Below are positions 2,345 through 62,330 of a DNA stretch of 64,000 bases, piece by piece; the stretch's first letter is position 1; each line of letters opens with the position of its first letter. The position numbers were made by a program, and so were the translations under genes. Source of the stretch: an uncultured delta proteobacterium (lineage in GTDB: Bacteria; Myxococcota_A; Polyangia; Palsa-1104); contig CAWFMP010000002.1 of NCBI GenBank assembly GCA_963816965.1, forward strand, positions 875,673 through 939,672. Reading direction: 5' to 3'. Under the pieces are notes generated by a model. It saw only the letters and a list, made by a program, of their open reading frames with translations. It was not told where the DNA came from and did no database searches.

Positions 2345-2412
2345 CTCGCGCGGCGAGGCTGCACGGCATGCCGTGGCGATGGCGATGGCGATGGCGCCAG
2401 GGGGGCACTGAC

Positions 2413-2530
2413 GGCCCCGCGCGCACTGCCCCGCTGGGCTCAAACAGTCCTCGCCGCCGGGGCGCTGTGCTCGATTCGGGCCCTTGCCTGTGCTGCGGAG
2501 CTCGCCCAGCGGGGCAGTGCGCGCGGGGCC
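2413..2530. repeat. MITE-like dispersed element, family A, copy 1 (perfect 27-bp terminal inverted repeats GGCCCCGCGCGCACTGCCCCGCTGGGC)
   Basis: Near-identical copies at 10651-10768, 24047-24230, 34209-34328 (inverted), 62150-62330; intergenic. Confidence 0.8.
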
Positions 2531-2586
2531 TGCGTGCTCTTGGATGGGGAGCGGTTGCGGCGAGCGGCGGGCCGCGGTGCCGCTGG

Positions 2587-3774
2587 GTGGGGCTGGTGCT
2601 GGTTTTGTTGGCGGCGGGGCCGGTGCGGGCGCAGGTGTCGCGGGGGTCGGCGGTGCCGGTGCACGAGATCTATGCGTCGTGCTCGGGGGACGGGATGCCG
2701 CCGCCGGTGCGGGAGCACGCCGACACGCGCGTGCCGCCGTATAGCTTGCAGCTGTCGGCGCTGGTGCAGGCGTGGGGCGCCGCCTTCGCCGGGCGCGACG
2801 TGCGCCAGACCGACCTCGACGCCGTCGACGGCGCGGGGCTCTACCTCGGCGTGGCGCGCCTGGGCGCCTGCGGTCTTCTGCGCACGCCGAGCGGGCCCAT
2901 CTCGTGGACCGTGGTCTACGAGCCCTTCTCGCTGGACGAAGACGCGCATCCCGATCACCGCGCCTGGGGCCGCATCGTCGCCGCCGAGCTCGGCTTCGCT
3001 CCCTGGAGCTGGCTGACGATCTCGGCGGGCATCCGCAAGGTCGCGTTCAGCTACGGCCACGACGAGCCGCTGGAGCTGCGCGCGCTGCCGATCATCCCCT
3101 ACGTGTCGCAGTCGGTGGCGCCCGATCGGCGCGCCGGGATTACGCTCGACGACGACTTTGGCGCTGCGCACGTGGTCATCGGCGTCTACGAGGGGGCGCG
3201 CGATCTGAGCATCACCGACGACGGCGGCATGCTCCTCGCCGCGCGCCTGGTCGCCGAGCCCATCGGCCCCGTCGGCAACACGGTCTCGACCCGCGGCGAC
3301 CCGGCGGTGTGGCGCCGGCGGATGCGCTTCGCCATCAACGCGTCGATCCTGTATCAGTACGCCAACGGCGCCAGCAACTATGCGCTCGCCGCCGATGGTG
3401 CGCTCCATTGGGGGCCGGTCGGCCTGGCCGGCGAGTACGTGTTCGCGTCGGACACCACCGTGGAGGCGCCGGTGCGCCTGCTGCCGTATCCGGCGCCGGC
3501 GCGGCAGGGGTTGTGGGCCCAGGCGGCGGTGATGCTGTGGCGGCCGTGGATCGAGGTCAGCGCGCGCTACGACTGGTTCGACAACCCGGCGCAGGCGGGG
3601 CAGCGCTTCCACGCCGTCACCGCGGGGCTCGATCTGTACGGTGGGCGCCTGCTCAAGCTGCAGGCGGTCTACACGCACAAGTTCCACTACGGGCTGGCCG
3701 CCGTCGGCGCCCCGGACATCGACGACGACGTGTTCCTGCTGGTCGGCCAGCTCGCGCTCGAGCGGACCTTCTGA
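2587..3774 (+). CDS. putative outer-membrane beta-barrel protein
   Basis: Signal-peptide-like N-terminus (GLVLVLLAAGPVRAQ), alternating amphipathic strands, C-terminal ...LALERTF ending in Phe as in OMP barrels; the upstream part of the long ORF 1723-3774 overlaps the sigma gene and repeat and is discarded; start approximate (GTG). Confidence 0.5.
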   Translation: MGLVLVLLAAGPVRAQVSRGSAVPVHEIYASCSGDGMPPPVREHADTRVPPYSLQLSALVQAWGAAFAGRDVRQTDLDAVDGAGLYLGVARLGACGLLRTPSGPISWTVVYEPFSLDEDAHPDHRAWGRIVAAELGFAPWSWLTISAGIRKVAFSYGHDEPLELRALPIIPYVSQSVAPDRRAGITLDDDFGAAHVVIGVYEGARDLSITDDGGMLLAARLVAEPIGPVGNTVSTRGDPAVWRRRMRFAINASILYQYANGASNYALAADGALHWGPVGLAGEYVFASDTTVEAPVRLLPYPAPARQGLWAQAAVMLWRPWIEVSARYDWFDNPAQAGQRFHAVTAGLDLYGGRLLKLQAVYTHKFHYGLAAVGAPDIDDDVFLLVGQLALERTF

Positions 3775-9907: not shown

Positions 9908-10392
9908 CCGCGAGGCTCCTCGTCGTCGGCAACTCCGGCTCGGGGAAGTCGAGCTACGCCCGGCGCGTGGCCACGGCCGGCGGCGCCACCTACCTCGCGC
10001 TCGACTCGATCGTGTGGGAGCCGCACCAGATCGGCGTCGAACGGCCGCAGGCGGACGTGCGCGCCGATCTGGCGGCGTTCCTCGCCGCCCACGAGCGCTG
10101 GGTCATCGAGGGGTGCTACGGCGAGCTCATCGCGTGCGCGCTTCCGGCCTGCTCCCGGCTGCTGTTCCTGAATCCGGGGCTGGCCGCGTGCCTGGCCAAC
10201 AATCGGCGCCGGCCGTGGGAGCCGCACAAGTACGACTCGCCGGACGATCAGGCGCGCCTGCTGCCGAACCTGCAGGCCTGGGTCGAGAGCTACTACACGC
10301 GCACGGACCCATGGTCGTACGCGTACCATCGGCGGCTGTTCGACGGCTTCGACGGCGACAAGCGCGAGATCCGCGACCTCGGCGAGCTCTAG
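9904..10392 (+). CDS. small P-loop NTPase / nucleotide kinase-like protein
   Basis: 162 aa; Walker A LLVVGNSGSGKSS; GTG start overlaps J-protein stop (GTGA); last gene of the coupled operon. Confidence 0.75.
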   Translation: MTARLLVVGNSGSGKSSYARRVATAGGATYLALDSIVWEPHQIGVERPQADVRADLAAFLAAHERWVIEGCYGELIACALPACSRLLFLNPGLAACLANNRRRPWEPHKYDSPDDQARLLPNLQAWVESYYTRTDPWSYAYHRRLFDGFDGDKREIRDLGEL

Positions 10393-10650: not shown

Positions 10651-10768
10651 GGCCCCACGCACGCTGCCCCGCTGAGCTCGAACAGTCCTCGCCACCGGAC
10701 TGCTGTGCTCGATTCTGCCCCTTGCCTGTGCTGCGGAACTCGCCCAGCGGGGCAGTGTGCGTGGGGCC
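10651..10768. repeat. family A MITE-like element, copy 2
   Basis: Same 27-bp TIR architecture with a few substitutions. Confidence 0.8.
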
Positions 10769-11117: not shown

Positions 11118-11319
11118 GAGCTCTAACCCCAGGGTTCGCTTCGATTGACCTGCTGCGGACGATCCGCGCGGTCGCCTCGAGGACTACGTCCTCGCTCCCT
11201 CGGTCGAAATACCGACGGGTATTCCTCGGTCGGTTGCTCCGGTCGCATCCACGATCCGCCTCACGCGGCTGGCCCTCGCCAGCTCAACCGAAGCGAACCC
11301 TGGGGTTAGGCTAGAGCTC
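11118..11319. repeat. MITE-like element B2 with ~26-bp terminal inverted repeats (GAGCTCTAACCCCAGGGTTCGCTTCG)
   Basis: ~200 bp; abuts stop codon of the GNAT gene; shares the GAGCTCTA/TAGGCT end motif with B1. Confidence 0.7.
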
Positions 11320-21210: not shown

Positions 21211-22044
21211 CTAAACCGCCGCCCGCTGCTGATCCCGATCCTTCTTGATGCGGAGGATGTCGGCCGCCGTCTCCTCCACGGCCTTGCCGGTAATATCGAT
21301 CACCGGCCACGACGGATTCTGCCGAAACACCGACTGCGCGTACGCGATCTCCTGCGAGATGTGGTCGCGCTGCCCGTACGACGTATCCGCCGGCATGCCC
21401 AGGTGCTTGAGCCGCGCCTGCCGGATCTGCAGCAGCGCCTCGGCCTTGATGGTCAGCCCGAAGACGCGCTCCTGATCGATCGCGAACAGCTCGGCCGGCG
21501 GATCGATCCCCAGCACCAGCGGCACGTTCGCCACCTTGAAGCCCTTCTGCGCCAGGAACGTCGACAGCGGCGTCTTCGACGTGCGCGAGATGCCGACCAG
21601 CACCAGATCCGCCTTGGGCAGGTTGCGCGGCTCGCGCCCGTCGTCGTTGCGCACGGTGAACTCGACCGCCTCGATGCGCCGGAAGTACTCGTCGCCGATG
21701 GTGTGCAAGAGGCCGGGGACGCCCTTGGGCTGCGTCCCCAGATACGACGACAGCTTGGCCATGAGCGTGCCGATGAGATCGACGGCGTCGACGTTCTCCT
21801 CGTCGCACAGCCGGCGCAACAGCTCGCGGTGCGCCGTCGACACCACGGTGAACACCACCAGCGCCTTCATGTGCTTGGCCCGGTTGACGATCGAGCGCAT
21901 CTCCGCCTCCAGCCGCACGCGGGTGTACATGCGCAGCTGCACCGGCACCGTGTTGAACTGCAGCAGCGCCGCGCGCACCACCTTCTCGGCCGTCTCGCCG
22001 GTGGCGTCGGAGATGACGAAGATGAGCCGGGGCTCGCCCATGAT
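21211..22044 (-). CDS. PEP synthetase / pyruvate phosphate dikinase regulatory protein (PSRP, kinase/pyrophosphorylase, DUF299)
   Basis: 277 aa; LIFVISDATGETAEKV N-terminus and P-loop-like GISRTSKTP characteristic of YdiA/PSRP family. Confidence 0.85.
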   Translation of the reverse strand: MMGEPRLIFVISDATGETAEKVVRAALLQFNTVPVQLRMYTRVRLEAEMRSIVNRAKHMKALVVFTVVSTAHRELLRRLCDEENVDAVDLIGTLMAKLSSYLGTQPKGVPGLLHTIGDEYFRRIEAVEFTVRNDDGREPRNLPKADLVLVGISRTSKTPLSTFLAQKGFKVANVPLVLGIDPPAELFAIDQERVFGLTIKAEALLQIRQARLKHLGMPADTSYGQRDHISQEIAYAQSVFRQNPSWPVIDITGKAVEETAADILRIKKDRDQQRAAV

Positions 22045-22071
22045 CCGCGGCGGATGGTAGCATGCGCGCAA

Positions 22072-23472
22072 ATGCGCGTACTCATCGTCGTTTGCTCTTT
22101 CGTCACACTGTTCGGGATCGTGGTCGCCTGCAACGGCCCCGACCAGGGGCCGCGCTCGACGCTGTCGACCGATCAGGCGGCGGCCGCACGCCAGGCGTGC
22201 ATGTTCGGCGCCGGCACGCTGCCCGGCTTGTCGCAGGCCAAGGACGCGCCGCTCGGCAGCGAGATGCCCATCGACACCATCGTCGTCCTGATGATGGAGA
22301 ACCGCTCGTTCGATCATCTCCTGCAGAACCTGCCCGCCTTCGGCCAGCCCGACGCCGAGGTCGCCCCCGCCAACGTCACCAACCCCGACGCCGACGGCAC
22401 GCCCCGGCCCACCTACCACCTGGCCGAGTACTGCTTCGACGACACCTCGCACGGCTGGACCGACGTGCACACCGAGTGGGACCAAGGCGCCATGGACGGC
22501 TTCGTCGTCGCCAACAACCACAACGACTCCGCGCCCGCCGACGGCAAGCGCGCCATGGGCTACTACACCGAGCAGGATCTGCCGTTCTTCTACAGCCTGG
22601 CCAACACCTTCGCGCTCGCCGATCACAACTTCTCGTCGGTGCTCGGCCCGACCTTCCCCAACCGCGAGTACCTCTACGCCGCCACCTCGTTCGGCCACAT
22701 CGGCAACGACGTCTTCGGCGACGAGGAGCCGACGCTGTTTCAAGAGCTGGTGAACGCCAAGGTCGACTGGCGTATCTACTACACGGACCTGCCGGGCGCC
22801 TTCATCTTCCTCGGCACGCTCTCGGCCTACCTCGACAACACCAACAGCATCGGGACCTTCTTCAGCGACGCCCAGGCGGGCATGCTCGGGCAGCTCAACT
22901 TCGTCGATCCCACGCTCGGCAAGGGCGGCTACAGCCGCGACGACTTCCATCCGCCGGGCGACGTGCAGGAGGGCGAGAAGTTCCTCAGCGACGTGGTCAC
23001 CGCGCTCATGCAGTCGCCGCAGTGGTCGCACAGCGCGCTCATCGTCACCTTCGACGAGCACGGCGGCATCTACGACCACGTGCCGCCGCCGCCCGCCTGC
23101 GCGCCCGACGCCATCGCGCCCATCACCAACCCCAACGACAACGCGCCGGGCGACTTCGCCAACTACGGCGTGCGCGTGCCGCTCATCGTCGTGTCGCCCT
23201 ACGCCAAGCCGCACTTCGTCTCGCACACGGTCTACGACCACACCTCGATCACCCGCTTCATCGAGACCCGCTTCAAGCTGCCGGCGCTGACCGCCCGCGA
23301 CGCCAACGCCGATCCGCTCACCGATCTCTTCGACTTCAAGAAGGCCGCGTTCGCCACGCCCCCGTCGCTGCCGACGCCGACCGTCGACCCGCAGAAGCTC
23401 GCCGACTGCCTGCAGCGCTATCCGGACGACGGCGGCATCGGCTTCAGCCCCGACATGGGCCCGCAGCCGTGA
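22072..23472 (+). CDS. phosphoesterase-family lipoprotein (non-haemolytic phospholipase C / acid phosphatase family)
   Basis: 466 aa; lipobox VVACNG; IDTIVVLMMENRSFDHLLQNL, CFDDTSHGWTD, FLSDVVTALMQSPQWSHSALIVTFDEHGGIYDHVPPP match phosphoesterase family. Confidence 0.85.
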   Translation: MRVLIVVCSFVTLFGIVVACNGPDQGPRSTLSTDQAAAARQACMFGAGTLPGLSQAKDAPLGSEMPIDTIVVLMMENRSFDHLLQNLPAFGQPDAEVAPANVTNPDADGTPRPTYHLAEYCFDDTSHGWTDVHTEWDQGAMDGFVVANNHNDSAPADGKRAMGYYTEQDLPFFYSLANTFALADHNFSSVLGPTFPNREYLYAATSFGHIGNDVFGDEEPTLFQELVNAKVDWRIYYTDLPGAFIFLGTLSAYLDNTNSIGTFFSDAQAGMLGQLNFVDPTLGKGGYSRDDFHPPGDVQEGEKFLSDVVTALMQSPQWSHSALIVTFDEHGGIYDHVPPPPACAPDAIAPITNPNDNAPGDFANYGVRVPLIVVSPYAKPHFVSHTVYDHTSITRFIETRFKLPALTARDANADPLTDLFDFKKAAFATPPSLPTPTVDPQKLADCLQRYPDDGGIGFSPDMGPQP

Positions 23473-24014
23473 GCGGGGCGCCGCAGCCGTCGCTGACGAC
23501 AGCGCGGCTGCGGCTACGCCCGCTTGCGCCCGACGACGCCGCAGCTCTGCAGCGCCACGCCGGCCGGTTCGAGGTCGCCGGCACCACCATCAACATCCCG
23601 CATCCGTATGCGGAGGGGGCGGCCGAGTCGTTCATCGCCGCGCAGACCCTCGGGTGGCGCGAGGATCGATCGGCCACGTGGGCGGTCACCCGCGATGGCG
23701 ACTTCATCGGCTGCGTCGGGCTGCAGCTGGTGTCGCGCGCTCACGCGCGCGCGCGCCTCGGCTATTGGATCGCCCACCCCGAGTGGAACCGCGGCTACGC
23801 GACCGAGGCCTGCCGCGCCGTCGTCGACTGGGCGTTCGCCGACGGCTGGCACCGGGTCGAAGCCGACCACCTGTGCCGCAACCCGGCGTCAGGCCGCGTG
23901 ATGCAGAAGCTCGGGATGCGCCACGAAGGGCGCATGCGGGCGTACTACCGGCGCTTCGACCAGTGGGAGGACGTGGAGCTCTATGCGCTCGTCGGGGGCG
24001 ACAGCGATCGCTGA
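23469..24014 (+). CDS. GNAT family N-acetyltransferase (RimJ/RimL-like)
   Basis: 181 aa; GTG start overlaps phosphoesterase stop (GTGA); WNRGYATEACRAVVDWAF motif region. Confidence 0.8.
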   Translation: MSGAPQPSLTTARLRLRPLAPDDAAALQRHAGRFEVAGTTINIPHPYAEGAAESFIAAQTLGWREDRSATWAVTRDGDFIGCVGLQLVSRAHARARLGYWIAHPEWNRGYATEACRAVVDWAFADGWHRVEADHLCRNPASGRVMQKLGMRHEGRMRAYYRRFDQWEDVELYALVGGDSDR

Positions 24015-24046: not shown

Positions 24047-24230
24047 GGCCCCGCGCGCGCTGCCCCGCTGGGCTCAAACAGTCCTCGCCACCGGGACGTT
24101 GTGCTCGATTCCACCCCTTGCCGGTGCTGCGGAACTCGCCCCGCGGGGCAGCGCGCGCGGGGCCGGCCGTGCTCGCCTTGGGGGTGGGAACTCGCCCCGC
24201 GGGGCAGCGCGCGCGGGGCCGGCCGTGCTC
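24047..24230. repeat. family A MITE-like element, copy 3, with a tandem partial duplication of its right end
   Basis: Right-hand 45 bp (GGGAACTCGCCCCGCGGGGCAGCGCGCGCGGGGCCGGCCGTGCTCG) repeated twice. Confidence 0.8.
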
Positions 24231-34113: not shown

Positions 34114-34208
34114 GCGCGCAGTCTAAATCAGCATCTCCCCGCCGAAGCCCGAAAACGCCGCTCCTCACTGGTGGAGCTCGCCGCCGCCGCGTCCGCGTCG
34201 GCTGCACT

Positions 34209-34328
34209 GAGGCCCCGTGCGCTCTACCCCGCTGGGCGAGTTCCGCAGCACAGGCAAGGGGCCTAATCGAGCACAGCGGCCCGGTGGCGAGGACTGTTTG
34301 AGCCCAGCGGGGTAGAGCGCGCGGGGCC
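34209..34328. repeat. family A MITE-like element, copy 4 (inverted orientation)
   Basis: Reverse complement matches copy 1 including TIRs. Confidence 0.8.
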
Positions 34329-34365
34329 GGACGTAGCGCTCGGCGCCCTCCGCTGTCGGTCTGCT

Positions 34366-49799: not shown

Positions 49800-50000
49800 T
49801 CCTAAGGGCAATGCGGTTCACAGTCGGCGGGTCAACCGGCCGGCGTGGGCCGCGGAGGTCGTGAGGCGCCTGGTGCTACGTCGAAGTCGCGCCTGTCCAT
49901 CGCAGCAGGCGTCGAGCGGAGGCAGCGCCCCTTGCTACCTCCGCGGCCCAAGCCGGCCCGCTACGACTCGGCCAAAGTGAACGGCATTGGTCCTGAGGGC
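49800..50000. repeat. dispersed repeat family C, copy 1
   Basis: Shares GGGCCGCGGAGGTCGTGAGGCGCC and GGTACTACGTCGAAGTCGCGCCTGT blocks and AATGCCGTTCAC-type ends with 61920-62150. Confidence 0.65.
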
Positions 50001-57058: not shown

Positions 57059-58370
57059 GCTCCCGACGCTGGTCGTCTGGTTCGGCGTCGTGTCGCTTCT
57101 GACCGACGTCGGCACCGAGATGATCTATCCGCTGCTGCCGCTCTTCCTCTCCAACGTGCTGCACGCGCCGCGCACCTTCATCGGCGCCGTCGAGGGCGCG
57201 GCGGAGGCGACCGCGTCGCTGCTCAAGCTGGTCTCGGGACGGCTGAGCGATCGCCTGCGCCGCCGCAAGCCGCTCACGGTGGCCGGCTACGGGCTGTCGT
57301 CGCTGGTGCGGCCCCTGGTGGGGCTGGCGACCCATCCGTGGCACGTGCTGGCCACGCGGGTCGCCGATCGGGTGGGCAAGGGCGTGCGCTCGAGCCCGCG
57401 CGACGCGCTGCTCGCCGACGCCACCGACCCGGCGCAGCGCGGGCGCGCCTACGGCTTTCACCAGGCGATGGACAACGCCGGCGCGCTCGTCGGCCCGCTG
57501 GTCGCCACCGCGCTGCTGGCCGTCGGCTTCGAGATGCGCAGCGTCTTCTTCTTCGCCGCCGTTCCGGGCGCGCTGGCGATGGGTGCGCTCATCTTCGGCG
57601 TGCGCGAAGAGCCGCGCAGCGGCAGCGAGGTCGCCCGGGCCAAGGCGCGCAGCGCGGCGCCCTTCAGCCCGACGCTGAGCCGCTACCTCGTGTGCGTCGC
57701 GCTCTTCGGCCTCGGCAACTCGTCCGACGCCTTTCTATTGTTGCGCGGCCAGCAGGTCGGCGTCCCCGTCAAATGGATCCCGCTTCTGTGGATGGCGCAC
57801 AACGGCACCAAGGCGGCGCTGTCGACCTGGGCGGGCGGGCTCTCCGATCGCATCGGCCGCCGCCGCGTCATCATCGCCGGCTGGACGCTCTACGCGGCCA
57901 CCTACCTCGCCTTCGGCTTCGCGTCGCACGCGTGGCAGATCTGGGCGCTGTTCGTCGTGTACGGCGTCTACTACGCGTTCGTCGAGGGTACCGAGAAGGC
58001 GCTGGTCGCCGACCTGGTGCCCGCTGGCGCGCGCGGCCGCGCCTTCGGTTGGTTCAACGCGGTCGTCGGCCTGGCGGCGCTGCCGGCTTCGCTGGCATTC
58101 GGTGCGCTCGCCGATCGCTTCGGCGCGCGCGTCGCGTTCACGGTGTCGGCTTCGCTGGCGGCGGCGGCGAGCTTGTGGCTGCTGCTGCTGGTGCGGCCGC
58201 CGCGGAGGGCGCCGCCTTCGGGGGCGTTGTCGGCGCAGGAGCCGGCTTCGGGAGCGCCGGCTTCGGGAGCGCAGCCTTCGGAGGCGTCCCCGGCGGTGGA
58301 GGCGCCTTCGGGGGCGCCGTCGTCGGCGGCGCTGTCGCCGGAGGTGCCGTCGCCGGAGGTGCCGTCATAG
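57045..58370 (+). CDS. MFS transporter with Ser/Pro/Ala-rich C-terminal tail
   Basis: 441 aa; 12 TM helices; tail encoded by tandem GGAGG[CT]G[CT]CGTCG repeats that continue past the stop. Confidence 0.8.
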
Positions 58371-59244
58371 GAGGCGTCGTCGTCGGAGGTGCCGTCGTCG
58401 GAGGCGTCGTCGCCGGAGGTGCCGTCGTCGGAGGCGTCGTCGCCGGAGGCGTCGTCGCCGGAGGCGTCGCCGCCGGCTCGCTGATGTCGATCTGCGGCAG
58501 CTCGTCGATGCGCGGCATCACCACCACCTCGATGCGCCGGTTGAGCGTGCGCCCCTCGGGCGTATCGTTGGTGGCGAGCGGATCGAACTCCGAGTAGCCG
58601 GCCGCCGCCAGCCGCCGCGGATCGACGCCTTCGCCCTGCAGAAAGCGCACGACCGTGACCGCGCGCGCCGTCGACAGCTCCCAGTTCGACGCGTACGGCG
58701 AGCTCTTGATCGGACGATTGTCGGTGTGCCCGGCGACGAGGAAGTCGCGATCGGCGATCTCCTTGAGCGCTTGCGCCACCTCCTTGAGCGCACGCTCGCC
58801 GTCCGGCTTGAGCGTGGCCTGCCCGGGATCGAAGAGGATCGCGTCGCCGAGCTTGACCAGCATCTTGCCCTTGCGCACCTCGACCGCCAGCGTGCCGGCG
58901 CCGATGGCGTCGCGCAGCCGCGCCACCAGCGTCCGGTAGAGCTCGTTGCGCTGCTCGGCCTGCGCGTGCGCCCGGCGCAGCGCGTCCATCTCGTGCTGCG
59001 TGGCCTGCAGGTTGTTGGCGAGCTTGGACGCGTCGGCGCGCTGGCGCGCGATCTCGTCGTCGCGCTCGTCGCGATCCTTGCGCAGCTGATCTTCGCGCGC
59101 GTGCGAGGCGCCGAGCTGGTTCTGCGCCTGCCCGAGCTCGGCCTGGCACTTCTCGACCTCGGTCACGCGCGTGTTGTACTCGGCCTGCGAGACACCGCAG
59201 CCGGCGGCGCAGGCGAGGAGTAGGGCGCAAAGTCGAAGCGGCAC
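58138..59244 (-). CDS. OmpA-family lipoprotein (coiled coil + OmpA C-like domain + Pro/Thr-rich tail)
   Basis: Lipobox LLACAAGCG; VAGHTDNRPIKSSPYASNWELSTARAVTVVRFL; PATTPP repeats; 3' end overlaps MFS gene convergently within the repeat tract. Confidence 0.8.
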   Translation of the reverse strand: MPLRLCALLLACAAGCGVSQAEYNTRVTEVEKCQAELGQAQNQLGASHAREDQLRKDRDERDDEIARQRADASKLANNLQATQHEMDALRRAHAQAEQRNELYRTLVARLRDAIGAGTLAVEVRKGKMLVKLGDAILFDPGQATLKPDGERALKEVAQALKEIADRDFLVAGHTDNRPIKSSPYASNWELSTARAVTVVRFLQGEGVDPRRLAAAGYSEFDPLATNDTPEGRTLNRRIEVVVMPRIDELPQIDISEPAATPPATTPPATTPPTTAPPATTPPTTAPPTTTPPMTAPPATAPPATAPPTTAPPKAPPPPGTPPKAALPKPALPKPAPAPTTPPKAAPSAAAAPAAAATSSPPPPAKPTP

Positions 59245-61919: not shown

Positions 61920-62150
61920 CCCGATGCCGTTCACTTTCGGCGGGTAGTAGCGGGCCGGCCTGGGCCGCGGAGGTCGTGAGGCGCCATCCCGGCGTCGGAA
62001 GCCGGCGCAGTCGCCGCCGCTTCGGGGCGGCGTGCGCCTCCATCGGGCCGCTCGAGGTCGCGCTGCGCGTTACGCGGCCCTCTACGCCGCCGGGAGGGCG
62101 CCTCACGACCTCCGCTCACGGGCGCCTGGTACTACGTCGAAGTCGCGCCT
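61920..62150. repeat. repeat family C, copy 2, carrying a ~110-bp internal insertion with its own inverted repeat
   Basis: GCGGAGGTCGTGAGGCGCC ... GGCGCCTCACGACCTCCGC inverted pair flanks the extra segment absent from copy 1. Confidence 0.6.
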
Positions 62151-62330
62151 GTGCTGCGGAGCTCGCCCAGCGGGGCAGAGCGCACGGGGCCTCTGTGCAA
62201 CCCAAGCGGGCGCAAACTGAAGACCTGAACCGGGGAGGCGATCGGGCTGGCAGGCAAGGGGTCGAATCGAGCACAGCGGTCCGCTGGTGAGGACTGTTTG
62301 AGCCGAGCGGGGCAGAGCGTGCGGGGCCGG
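62150..62330. repeat. family A MITE-like element, copy 5 (rearranged: right-end fragment + inverted copy with ~50-bp insertion)
   Basis: GTGCTGCGGAGCTCGCCCAGCGGGGCAG... followed by inverted CAGGCAAGGGGTCGAATCGAGCACAGCGG...GACTGTTTGAGCCGAGCGGGGCAGAGCGTGCGGGGCC. Confidence 0.7.

What the first reader, a model, noticed from the sequence alone, without database searches (positions are those of the whole stretch)
2413..2530. Family A: dispersed 118-bp element with perfect 27-bp terminal inverted repeats, five copies in 64 kb
Copies lie at 2413-2530, 10651-10768, 24047-24230 (with a partial tandem duplication), 34209-34328 (inverted) and 62150-62330 (rearranged, with insertion). They share GGCCCCGCGCGCACTGCCCCGCTGGGC at one end and its reverse complement at the other, and all are intergenic. 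Density is about one per 13 kb. Such a sequence can fold into a long hairpin, as REP/BIME or MITE elements do. It may affect mRNA stability or termination and provide homology for rearrangements.
Basis: seen in the sequence. Interest (0 to 1): 0.55.

Follow-up and report, generated by a model that had tools for sequence, protein, structure and literature searches.

The report
Palindromic intergenic repeat with conserved core
This is a real, previously undescribed family of about 134-bp hairpin-forming repeats that has been inserted just after genes in an uncultured myxobacterium; it is an ordinary kind of small non-coding mobile repeat, except that related bacteria keep the middle of the element while its long, almost perfectly paired arms have entirely different sequences.

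Summary
The window holds four intact copies and one rearranged copy of a palindromic element of about 134 bp. Each has 27-35-bp inverted arms around a 64-66-nt asymmetric core. All copies lie in non-coding DNA, and none is expected by chance.

The window comes from an uncultured Polyangia (Myxococcota) genome. It is 98-99% identical to a 4.33-Mb ENA metagenome contig.

Orthologous intergenic sites in relatives are empty, so copies arise by insertion or are lost by deletion. No transposase lies in the window, no target-site duplication was found, and nothing in Rfam matches.

Copies in three other Polyangia lineages keep the core (81-88% identical, or its two ends in a short variant). Their arms are unrelated in sequence (35-67% identity) yet still pair almost perfectly: 20 of 25 arm pairs changed on both sides and 98% stay paired. 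The arms show no excess of G·U wobble, so the pairing looks like DNA-level complementarity rather than RNA-level selection.

All eight copies have the same core end facing the stop codon of a gene transcribed towards them.

Best reading: a new family of MITE-, ERIC- or BIME-like palindromic repeats, co-transcribed as 3'-UTR hairpins. It is not a REPIN and not a classical TIR-defined MITE. Genome-wide copy number and the mobilising enzyme remain unknown.

The parts
2405..2538 (+). Copy 1. Arms 2413-2439 and 2504-2530 (27/27 complementary), core 2440-2503, outer GCAC/GTGC extension. It starts 60 nt after the stop codon of the ECF sigma gene (1550-2344, +), which is followed by another + gene.
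   Evidence: CM 125.5 bits
10643..10776 (+). Copy 2. Arms 10651-10677 and 10742-10768. Two arm positions changed on both sides (G-C to A-T), plus one G.T and one A.C. It lies in a non-coding stretch of about 900 bp, 250 nt after the + gene that ends at 10392.
   Evidence: 130.6 bits
24039..24172 (+). Copy 3. 34 of 35 stem positions paired, including a compensated multi-base patch in the outer stem (GGCC/GGCC). It starts 24 nt after the stop codon of the + gene that ends at 24014.
   Evidence: I12; 127.2 bits
24187..24242 (+). 56-bp tandem duplicate of the right end of copy 3 (end of core, right arm and 22 nt of flank), 98% identical to 24131-24186.
   Evidence: (D12)
34203..34336 (-). Copy 4, between the stop codon of the GlgB-like gene (34366, -) and the start of the MFS gene (34113, -). 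The orthologous spacer is 17 and 26 nt, with no element, in two relatives.
   Evidence: 136.6 bits
62251..62338 (-). Copy 5, main part: left arm plus the 5' two-thirds of the core, ending at ...CCCCTTGCCTG. It lies 13 nt after the stop codon of the trypsin-like gene (62351, -).
   Evidence: D17, I4-I6; 32.9 bits
62147..62198 (+). Copy 5, detached part: the 3' third of the core (GCCTGTGCTGCGGAGCTCG), the right arm and GTGC. It is inverted relative to the main part and separated from it by 52 unrelated bases, consistent with a small local inversion of about 112 bp.
   Evidence: (D6, I8)

Best explanation
Family A is a non-autonomous, proliferating palindromic intergenic repeat. It resembles MITE, ERIC and BIME-type elements and belongs to an uncultured Polyangia (Myxococcota) lineage.

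The unit is a DNA palindrome with 27-35-bp arms around an asymmetric 64-66-nt core.

Shown:
- Copies are gained or lost at orthologous sites.
- They sit in non-coding DNA, 5-70 nt after a stop codon in seven of eight cases (250 nt for copy 2).
- The same core end always faces the stop codon of a gene transcribed towards the element.
- The arms stay complementary while their sequence turns over completely between lineages.
- The core, especially its ends CTCARACAGTCCTCG and CTGCGGRA..ACTCG, stays fixed.

Inferred:
- (a) The arms are kept perfect by a DNA copying process, namely intramolecular template switching (quasipalindrome correction), not by RNA-level selection. Mismatches show no G.U excess, and multi-base patches change on both arms together.
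- (b) The core carries the sequence-specific sites needed in cis, either for mobilisation by an enzyme encoded elsewhere or for binding a host protein. This would explain why it is constrained.
- (c) Because the element lies in the sense orientation in 3' UTRs, it is transcribed with the upstream gene. It then forms a perfect RNA duplex of about 30 bp, which would act as a 3' barrier to exonucleases, a pause or termination site, or an RNase III target.
For: - Repeat is real and non-random.
- Extremely stable fold on either strand.
- Non-coding position.
- No transposase among the genes of the window.
- Empty orthologous sites: the GlgB-MFS spacer is 263 nt with the element in the source genome, against 17 and 26 nt in relatives with 76% and 80% GlgB identity. 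The TPR-TspO spacer is filled in L002 and is 53 nt and empty in L010. The PpsR-downstream site is filled in L018 and empty in the source genome.
- Homologues with other arms: L002, L018, a Kofleriaceae MAG, and the L011 short variant.
- Arm covariation: 20 of 25 pairs changed on both sides, 98.2% of cells paired, 0 of 500 shuffles reach this, and slid controls fall to 37-53% paired.
- Identity between lineages: arms 35-67%, core 81-88%.
- Non-Watson-Crick cells in the arms: 1 G.T, 3 A.C and 2 pyrimidine-pyrimidine.
- A close relative (at least 90% protein identity) carries at least two more copies at a locus absent from the window.
- Template switching is documented to homogenise and extend inverted-repeat arms (abstracts of PMC8604942, PMC13100816 and PMC7202029).
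Against: - No mobilising enzyme was identified and no consistent target-site duplication was found, so the mechanism of spread is unknown.
- Only 109 kb of the source genome could be read. All five copies are in the window and none is in the other 45 kb, so genome-wide abundance is unproven.
- Only four lineages are available. Two of these copies (L002 and L011) share a site and may be one ancestral insertion.
- A core as conserved between lineages as between paralogues, together with the 8-of-8 orientation bias, could instead point to a host function at the RNA level.
- No expression data exist.
Confidence: 0.55

Rival explanations
1. The conserved core is a functional RNA or RNA-level protein-binding module. 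It is displayed on a long closing stem in the 3' UTR of many unrelated genes. Examples would be a processing, stability or sponge element, or a 3'-UTR-derived small RNA released by RNase III. On this reading the multiplication of copies is secondary.
For: - The core is 81-88% identical across lineages whose neighbouring proteins are only 70-84% identical, while the flanking arms are scrambled.
- The boundary between arms and core is at exactly the same bases in all lineages.
- All 8 copies have the CTCAAACAG end nearest the stop codon of a gene transcribed towards them, and copy 4 flips together with its genes.
- RNAalifold proposes an inner helix UCCUCGCCAC/GUGCUGCGGA with a G.U kept in 6 of 7 sequences and two pairs changed on both sides. 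In the L011 short variant this helix continues as a perfect stem.
Against: - The core alone folds no better than shuffled sequence on either strand (z +0.19 and +0.70).
- The inner helix is mostly invariant, so it carries little covariation.
- My alternative three-way-junction model is contradicted by a G-to-C change in the copy translated in P0241.
- The arms show no G.U enrichment, which RNA-level selection would allow.
- No Rfam family matches, even at E up to 10.
- There is no room for a promoter: the element starts 8-60 nt after stop codons.
- The upstream genes share no function.
Confidence: 0.2
2. It is a REPIN. Two inverted REP sequences would be mobilised as a single-stranded DNA hairpin by a single-copy REP-associated tyrosine transposase (RAYT) encoded elsewhere in the genome.
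For: - The architecture is similar: two inverted units of about 27 nt, a spacer of about 64 nt, and about 118-134 bp overall.
- It is extragenic and forms a long hairpin, and compensatory changes across the hairpin are common. All of this matches the description of REPINs (PMC3116915).
- There is no target-site duplication, as expected for HUH/Y1 transposition.
Against: - The arms are not palindromes on their own (z +0.27 and -0.38) and carry no conserved GTAG-like foot.
- In REPINs the REP ends are the most conserved part and the spacer the least. Here the reverse holds between lineages.
- There are no REP singlets, meaning arms without a core, in 109 kb of the source genome.
- There is no Y1 transposase in the window.
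Confidence: 0.1
3. It is a classical MITE: an internally deleted derivative of an insertion sequence, moved by a DDE transposase that recognises the 27-bp terminal inverted repeats.
For: - Small size, no coding capacity, terminal inverted repeats 81-96% conserved among the five copies in the genome, dispersed copies and empty sites in relatives.
- A second family in the same genome does look like a classical TA-flanked MITE, so such elements are active in this lineage.
Against: - No consistent direct repeat flanks the copies at any plausible boundary.
- The arm sequence is not conserved in related lineages, while the interior is.
- Paired changes on both arms would not be expected if the two ends evolved independently.
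- No parent IS lies in the window, and the element has no match in the plasmid collection.
Confidence: 0.1
4. It is a host DNA-level site: a chromosomal palindrome with a central protein-binding region, like BIME-1/RIP elements with their IHF site. It would be kept for nucleoid organisation or topology rather than as a selfish element.
For: - It has the same layout as BIME-1: two inverted palindromic units around a conserved linker (my own knowledge of BIMEs).
- The core is conserved in sequence but is not structured.
- Three direct GNNCTCG motifs are spaced 21 and 35 bp apart in the core (read from the sequences).
Against: - No match to a known binding consensus was found. IHF, LexA, sigma-54 and parS were checked by eye only.
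- A DNA-level binding site does not predict the orientation bias relative to transcription.
- Close relatives lack the element at the same sites.
Confidence: 0.05

Closest known systems
ERIC / IRU elements of enterobacteria (about 127-bp imperfect palindromes)
   Same: Similar size. The whole element forms one long hairpin. It is intergenic and lies within transcribed regions. It is non-coding, with no known transposase. Its sequence is conserved across species although copies sit at different loci. Copy number is lineage-specific. (These ERIC properties are from my own knowledge.)
   Different: No sequence relationship is evident, though this was not formally tested. In ERIC the whole palindrome is conserved. 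Here only the asymmetric centre is conserved and the arms are replaced. The host is a high-GC myxobacterium.
[quoted passage not shown]
   Same: Two inverted units of about 27 nt around a spacer. Hairpin of about 120-130 nt. Extragenic. Compensatory changes across the hairpin (PMC3116915).
   Different: The arms are not themselves palindromic. No singlets occur. The conservation pattern is inverted: core above arms between lineages. No RAYT gene was seen.
Correia elements / NEMIS of Neisseria
   Same: A repeat of about 100-150 bp with inverted ends of about 26 bp. It is co-transcribed with neighbouring genes and forms perfect double-stranded RNA that RNase III cuts (my own knowledge). This is the closest model for what the transcribed element would do.
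   Different: Correia elements have conserved terminal repeats, a TA target duplication and an IHF site. None of these was found here.
BIME-1 / RIP elements of E. coli
   Same: Two inverted palindromic units around a conserved central linker that binds a protein (IHF). They lie at the 3' ends of genes (my own knowledge).
   Different: The BIME units are REP palindromes. The arms here are not. No IHF-like consensus was recognised in the core.
Quasipalindrome correction by template switching
   Same: It explains arms that stay perfectly complementary while drifting, multi-base patches changed on both arms (copy 3), the small inversion at copy 5 and the tandem duplications of arm pieces (abstracts of PMC8604942, PMC13100816 and PMC7202029).
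   Different: It is a mutational process, not an element family. It does not explain the conserved core or the spread to new sites.

Membership tests
Classical MITE (DDE transposase-dependent) | Terminal inverted repeats | tested here: met
   Arms of 27-35 bp are 25-27 of 27 complementary in all four intact copies.
Classical MITE (DDE transposase-dependent) | Direct target-site duplication of fixed length flanking each copy | tested here: not met
   Boundaries were scanned over -14 to +14 nt. Only 3-6-nt GC-rich matches appeared, at inconsistent offsets. The true ends are uncertain, so this is a weak negative.
Classical MITE (DDE transposase-dependent) | A parent insertion sequence with the same ends | not testable with these tools
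   No transposase lies in the window and the element has no match in the plasmid collection. The rest of the genome could not be searched.
Classical MITE (DDE transposase-dependent) | The ends are the conserved, enzyme-recognised part of the family | tested here: not met
   Between lineages the arms are 35-67% identical, about the random level at this GC content. The core is 81-88% identical.
REPIN / REP-RAYT | Each end is a REP: an imperfect palindrome able to form its own hairpin | tested here: not met
   Single arms fold no better than shuffles as DNA (z +0.27, -0.38, -0.17, -1.15).
REPIN / REP-RAYT | The doublet forms a hairpin with compensatory changes | tested here: met
   20 of 25 arm pairs changed on both sides and 98.2% of cells are paired.
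REPIN / REP-RAYT | The spacer is less conserved than the REP ends | tested here: not met
   Within the genome the core (88-92%) is about as conserved as the arms (81-96%). Between lineages the core is far more conserved.
REPIN / REP-RAYT | A cognate RAYT gene in the genome, usually flanked by REPs | not testable with these tools
   None in the 64-kb window or in the 45 kb of other loci from the source contig. The 4.3-Mb contig could not be scanned.
Intrinsic (Rho-independent) terminator | GC-rich hairpin directly followed by a run of T | tested here: not met
   The bases after the right arm are TGCGTGCTCTTGG, TCAGTGCTCGCG, GGCCGTGCTCGCC and TCAGTGCAGCCG in copies 1-4. None has a T run. Only L002 has TTTT, at +12.
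Any Rfam RNA family | Match to a curated covariance model | tested here: not met
   0 matches at gathering score in the whole window. At E up to 10 on copy 1 there are only chance hairpin matches to animal miRNA models, 10-19 bits against cut-offs of 38-74.
Integron attC site | Conserved R''/R' core sites (RYYYAAC ... GTTRRRY) at the outer ends, a variable centre, and arrays next to an integrase | tested here: not met
   The outer ends vary and the centre is conserved. Copies are 8-28 kb apart, and no integrase is among the genes.
ERIC / IRU | Sequence homology to the enterobacterial ERIC consensus | not tested
   No ERIC consensus was available in the tools. The resemblance is in architecture and evolutionary behaviour only.

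The most novel reading that the evidence does not exclude
The element is not simply selfish DNA. It would be a conserved sequence module of about 45-66 nt displayed at the tip of a self-correcting DNA palindrome. The arms are free to drift because a copying process keeps them perfect. The core is under purifying selection because, in the sense-strand 3' UTR transcript or in extruded single-stranded DNA, it is the recognition site for a dedicated protein. That protein could be a new hairpin-specific mobilising enzyme or an RNA-binding regulator. Such a thing would be a new class of element, defined by structure plus core rather than by its ends.
Probability: 0.2. Interest if true: 0.65.

Novelty: new member of a known kind. 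Interest (0 to 1): 0.38.

Why it matters
- It adds a repeat family for a poorly known, uncultured branch of myxobacteria. I found no described family that matches it.
- It is a clean natural example of long inverted repeats that stay perfect while their sequence turns over completely around a fixed centre. This bears on how palindromes are maintained in bacterial genomes, and on the risk of reading 'compensatory change' as proof of RNA structure.
- It has practical effects. One short-read contig ends inside the element (L018) and another ends about 40 nt short of copy 5. Gene callers read through it, so its translation is already in protein databases as part of a 468-residue and a 338-residue 'protein'.
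- If the core proves to be a protein-recognition site, it would give a handle on a mobilisation or 3'-UTR regulatory system in Polyangia.

Tried and rejected
- **Rfam.** The whole window at gathering score and copy 1 at E up to 10 gave nothing meaningful.
- **tRNA or tmRNA relation.** None found.
- **Exact-pattern scans of GTDB genomes.** The first pattern gave 0 hits. The second gave 8 hits, of which only the Kofleriaceae contig is real. Both patterns required TGTGCTCGATT. At least one true copy, the one translated in P0241, has CTGCTCGATT instead, so these scans undercount.
- **Metagenome scan.** One hit, L002.
- **Viral scan.** Four hits in low-GC phage contigs that match only the pattern itself. 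Rejected as chance.
- **Plasmid collection.** No match.
- **Three-way-junction model of the core** (hairpins ACAG-UCC.../...GGR-CUGU and CGAUUC.../...GAACUCG). It shows no covariation, is contradicted by the P0241 copy, and the core does not fold better than shuffles. Dropped.
- **The arms of L002 as swapped versions of the window arms.** This rests only on low-complexity resemblance and was not pursued.
- **The core as a mobile unit that inserts into pre-existing dispersed palindromes** (as IS1397 does into BIMEs). No arms without a core occur in 109 kb.
- **Homology between the core and the second MITE family of the genome.** The local alignment score is within the shuffled range.
- **Searching protein databases with the translated element to count copies.** Only one hit, and the search missed the known 468-residue ORF through copy 1. 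The method is insensitive.
- **Extending the window.** The look-up at the left end failed. The one at the right end returned a contig without DNA.
- **Binding and promoter consensus sequences.** Sigma-54, ECF-type promoter, IHF, LexA, parS and attC core-site motifs were checked by eye in the core. None fits.

Full report

Yes. The 27-nt arm has 10 matches at up to 3 mismatches, against none expected. A 34-nt core pattern has exactly five matches. The repeat finder recovers the same five places.

- Copy 1 (2413-2530) has perfectly complementary 27-nt arms.
- Copies 2, 3 and 4 have one or two mismatches in the arms.
- Complementarity and conservation run outward to GCAC-N4-GGCCCC ... GGGGCC-N4-GTGC, so the unit is about 134 bp.
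- Copy 3 is followed by a 56-bp tandem duplicate of its right end (D12).
- Copy 5 is split. Its 3' third and right arm lie inverted, 52 bp away from the rest, as after a small inversion.

Codon-position GC shows that every copy is in non-coding DNA. The copies differ from one another by 4-19% and have unique flanks, so they are not assembly duplicates.

**2. Where does the window come from?**

A protein of the window is encoded on ENA contig ERZ25039538:contig_11713 (4.33 Mb). That contig is 98.3-99.1% identical to the window, and copies 1, 2 and 4 are at the same places.

Names attached to homologous proteins place the organism in Polyangia/Myxococcota. The window has about 70% GC.

None of its genes is a transposase (gene tables). 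It holds no tRNA and no Rfam match.

**3. Are copies inserted?**

Three orthologous sites show presence in one genome and absence in a relative.

- *Copy 4 site.* In the source genome the GlgB-like and MFS genes are 263 nt apart, with copy 4 between them. In two relatives with 76% and 80% identical GlgB the same genes are 17 and 26 nt apart, with no element.
- *TPR gene site.* The element in the JGI contig L002 lies between a TPR gene and a TspO gene. A relative with an 84% identical TPR protein has a 53-nt spacer there and no element.
- *PpsR site.* The Kofleriaceae contig L018 has the element after a PpsR-like gene. The source genome has that gene with an empty 88-nt spacer.

So copies appear or disappear at given sites.

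A close relative of the source, with at least 90% protein identity, has at least two more copies. They were read through by a 338-residue ORF whose GGDEF part has no counterpart in the window.

Abundance in the source genome is unknown. Another 45 kb of the same contig (L007, L021) has no copy, so the window density of one per 13 kb is probably above the genome average.

**4. The unexpected part: the core is conserved, not the ends.**

Copies in other lineages keep the core but carry unrelated arms.

| Copy | Arms | Pairing | Core |
|---|---|---|---|
| L002 | GCGGGGGCAACGAGGGGCGCGCGCGCGG / complement | 27 of 28 paired | full, 66 nt |
| L018 | ..CAGAGCTGCCCCGCCCCG / complement | 17 of 18 readable before the contig ends | full, 72 nt |
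| L011 | TGACCGCGCACGTCTGTGCGGGTCCGTGCCGCG | 33 of 33 paired | short, 44 nt |

The L011 core keeps only the two ends, CTCAGACAGTCCTCG and CTGCGGGAGATAACTCG.

Between lineages the arms are 35-67% identical and the core 81-88%. The core is therefore as similar between lineages as between paralogues within the window.

On an alignment of seven copies, the outer stem gives these counts:
- 25 pairs, of which 20 changed on both sides;
- 98.2% of cells paired;
- no shuffle out of 500 reaches this;
- slid controls fall to 37-53% paired.

Compensated changes also occur within the window. One arm position is A-T in copy 1, G-C in copy 3 and T-A in copies 4 and 5. Copy 2 has two G-C to A-T pairs. Copy 3 has a compensated multi-base patch in the outer stem.

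**5. Is the pairing at DNA or RNA level?**

The few non-Watson-Crick cells in the arms are one G.T, three A.C and two pyrimidine-pyrimidine on the plus strand. There is no excess of wobble on either strand. RNA-level selection would tolerate wobble and let it accumulate.

I therefore read the arms as a true DNA inverted repeat, kept perfect by a copying process. The literature documents that intramolecular template switching at imperfect inverted repeats homogenises and extends the arms and can invert the spacer (abstracts of PMC8604942, PMC13100816 and PMC7202029). This would also account for the tandem arm duplications (copy 3, and the triplicated arm pieces in P0241) and for the small inversion at copy 5. 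It is inference, not a demonstration.

The sharp boundary between arms and core falls at the same bases in every lineage. Together with the recurrence of variation at the same few core positions, this indicates purifying selection on the core.

**6. What is the core?**

- It does not fold better than shuffled sequence on either strand.
- A three-way-junction model I proposed has no covariation and is contradicted by one copy.
- RNAalifold's inner helix is mostly invariant.

So the core looks like a sequence-specific site rather than a compact fold. It contains three direct GNNCTCG motifs. No known binding consensus that I checked by eye fits.

**7. Orientation and position.**

All eight copies have the CTCAAACAG end nearest the stop codon of a gene transcribed towards the element. 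The distance is 5-70 nt in seven of eight cases and 250 nt for copy 2. These are copies 1-5, L002, L011 and L018.

Copy 4 is flipped together with its flanking genes. With about seven independent sites, this has a chance probability of about 0.01.

It implies that the element is transcribed in one sense, as part of 3' UTRs. There it must form a duplex of about -100 kcal/mol. No run of T follows the arms, so it is not a canonical intrinsic terminator.

**8. Comparison with known kinds.**

It behaves like ERIC, Correia and BIME-type palindromic intergenic repeats.

- It fails two defining tests for a REPIN: the arms are not palindromes on their own, and the ends are not the conserved part.
- It fails two for a classical MITE: there is no target duplication, and the ends are not conserved across the family.
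- It is not an attC site, a terminator or an Rfam family.

I file it as a new family of a known general kind. About one chance in five remains that the conserved core marks something more specific: a protein-recognition module on a self-correcting palindrome.

**9. Limits.**

- Only 109 kb of the source genome and four other lineages were seen.
- The exact-pattern scans undercount, because true copies can differ in the bases the patterns required.
- There are no expression data.

Noticed in passing
window 11123-11309; also L021 13009-13195 and L007 9354-9540 (same genome): A second, unrelated repeat family of about 187 bp with terminal inverted repeats TAACCCCAGGGTTCGCTTCG. Its ends start with TA and it abuts or overlaps stop codons (the TAA of the TPR and DctP genes lies inside the repeat). 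There are three copies in 109 kb, in both orientations. It looks like a classical TA-targeting MITE. In the source genome it occupies the very site, just after the TPR gene, where L002 and L011 carry Family A (I9, 65, 79).
   Followed up: partly
L011 12023-12132 (ENA ERZ25039463 contig_35948): A short variant of Family A with a perfect 33-bp stem of unrelated sequence and a 44-nt core that keeps only the two core ends. It sits at the same position after the TPR gene as the full-length copy in L002, so the two may descend from one ancestral insertion.
   Followed up: partly
window 49905-49990 and 61921-62006: An 86-nt inverted repeat pair, 77% complementary (CCTCCGCGGCCCARGCCGGCCCGCTAC...AAAGTGAACGGCAT). 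One copy lies just upstream of the Ser/Thr kinase gene. The other lies about 140 bp from copy 5. Its nature is unknown (I7, 79).
   Followed up: no
window 2368-3774 (called gene in L020 18036-19442); protein P0241: Gene callers read through the element. A 468-residue ORF in the ENA record starts upstream of copy 1 and includes it. A 338-residue 'GGDEF protein' in NCBI/ENA contains translations of two copies plus triplicated arm pieces. The element therefore contaminates protein databases.
   Followed up: partly
L018 6270-6388 (contig end); Logan contig of ERR12036782: One short-read contig stops inside the element: the Kofleriaceae MAG contig ends 19 nt into the right arm. A 2.9-kb Logan contig ends 43 nt after the trypsin gene that precedes copy 5, close to the element. 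This suggests that the repeat or its hairpin breaks short-read assemblies.
   Followed up: no
window 24354-46313 and 1312-21840 compared with L001 and L020: The window differs from the ENA contig by 0.9-1.7%, with many small indels: 80 and 41 gap openings in 22 and 20 kb, for example an 11-nt GAGTCGGTTTT present only in L001 near copy 4. Several genes look frameshifted, for example overlapping long ORFs 21361-23472 and 22062-24014. This suggests either long-read assembly errors or a very close strain.
   Followed up: partly
window 58196-58480: A long array of imperfect 15-bp periodic repeats (GCCGTCGTCGGAGGC-like) inside overlapping ORFs on both strands. It is probably a low-complexity repeat region of a protein (D1/D3/D5).
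   Followed up: no
window 2369-2392: A short hexanucleotide run (GATGGC repeated four times) lies immediately upstream of copy 1.
   Followed up: no
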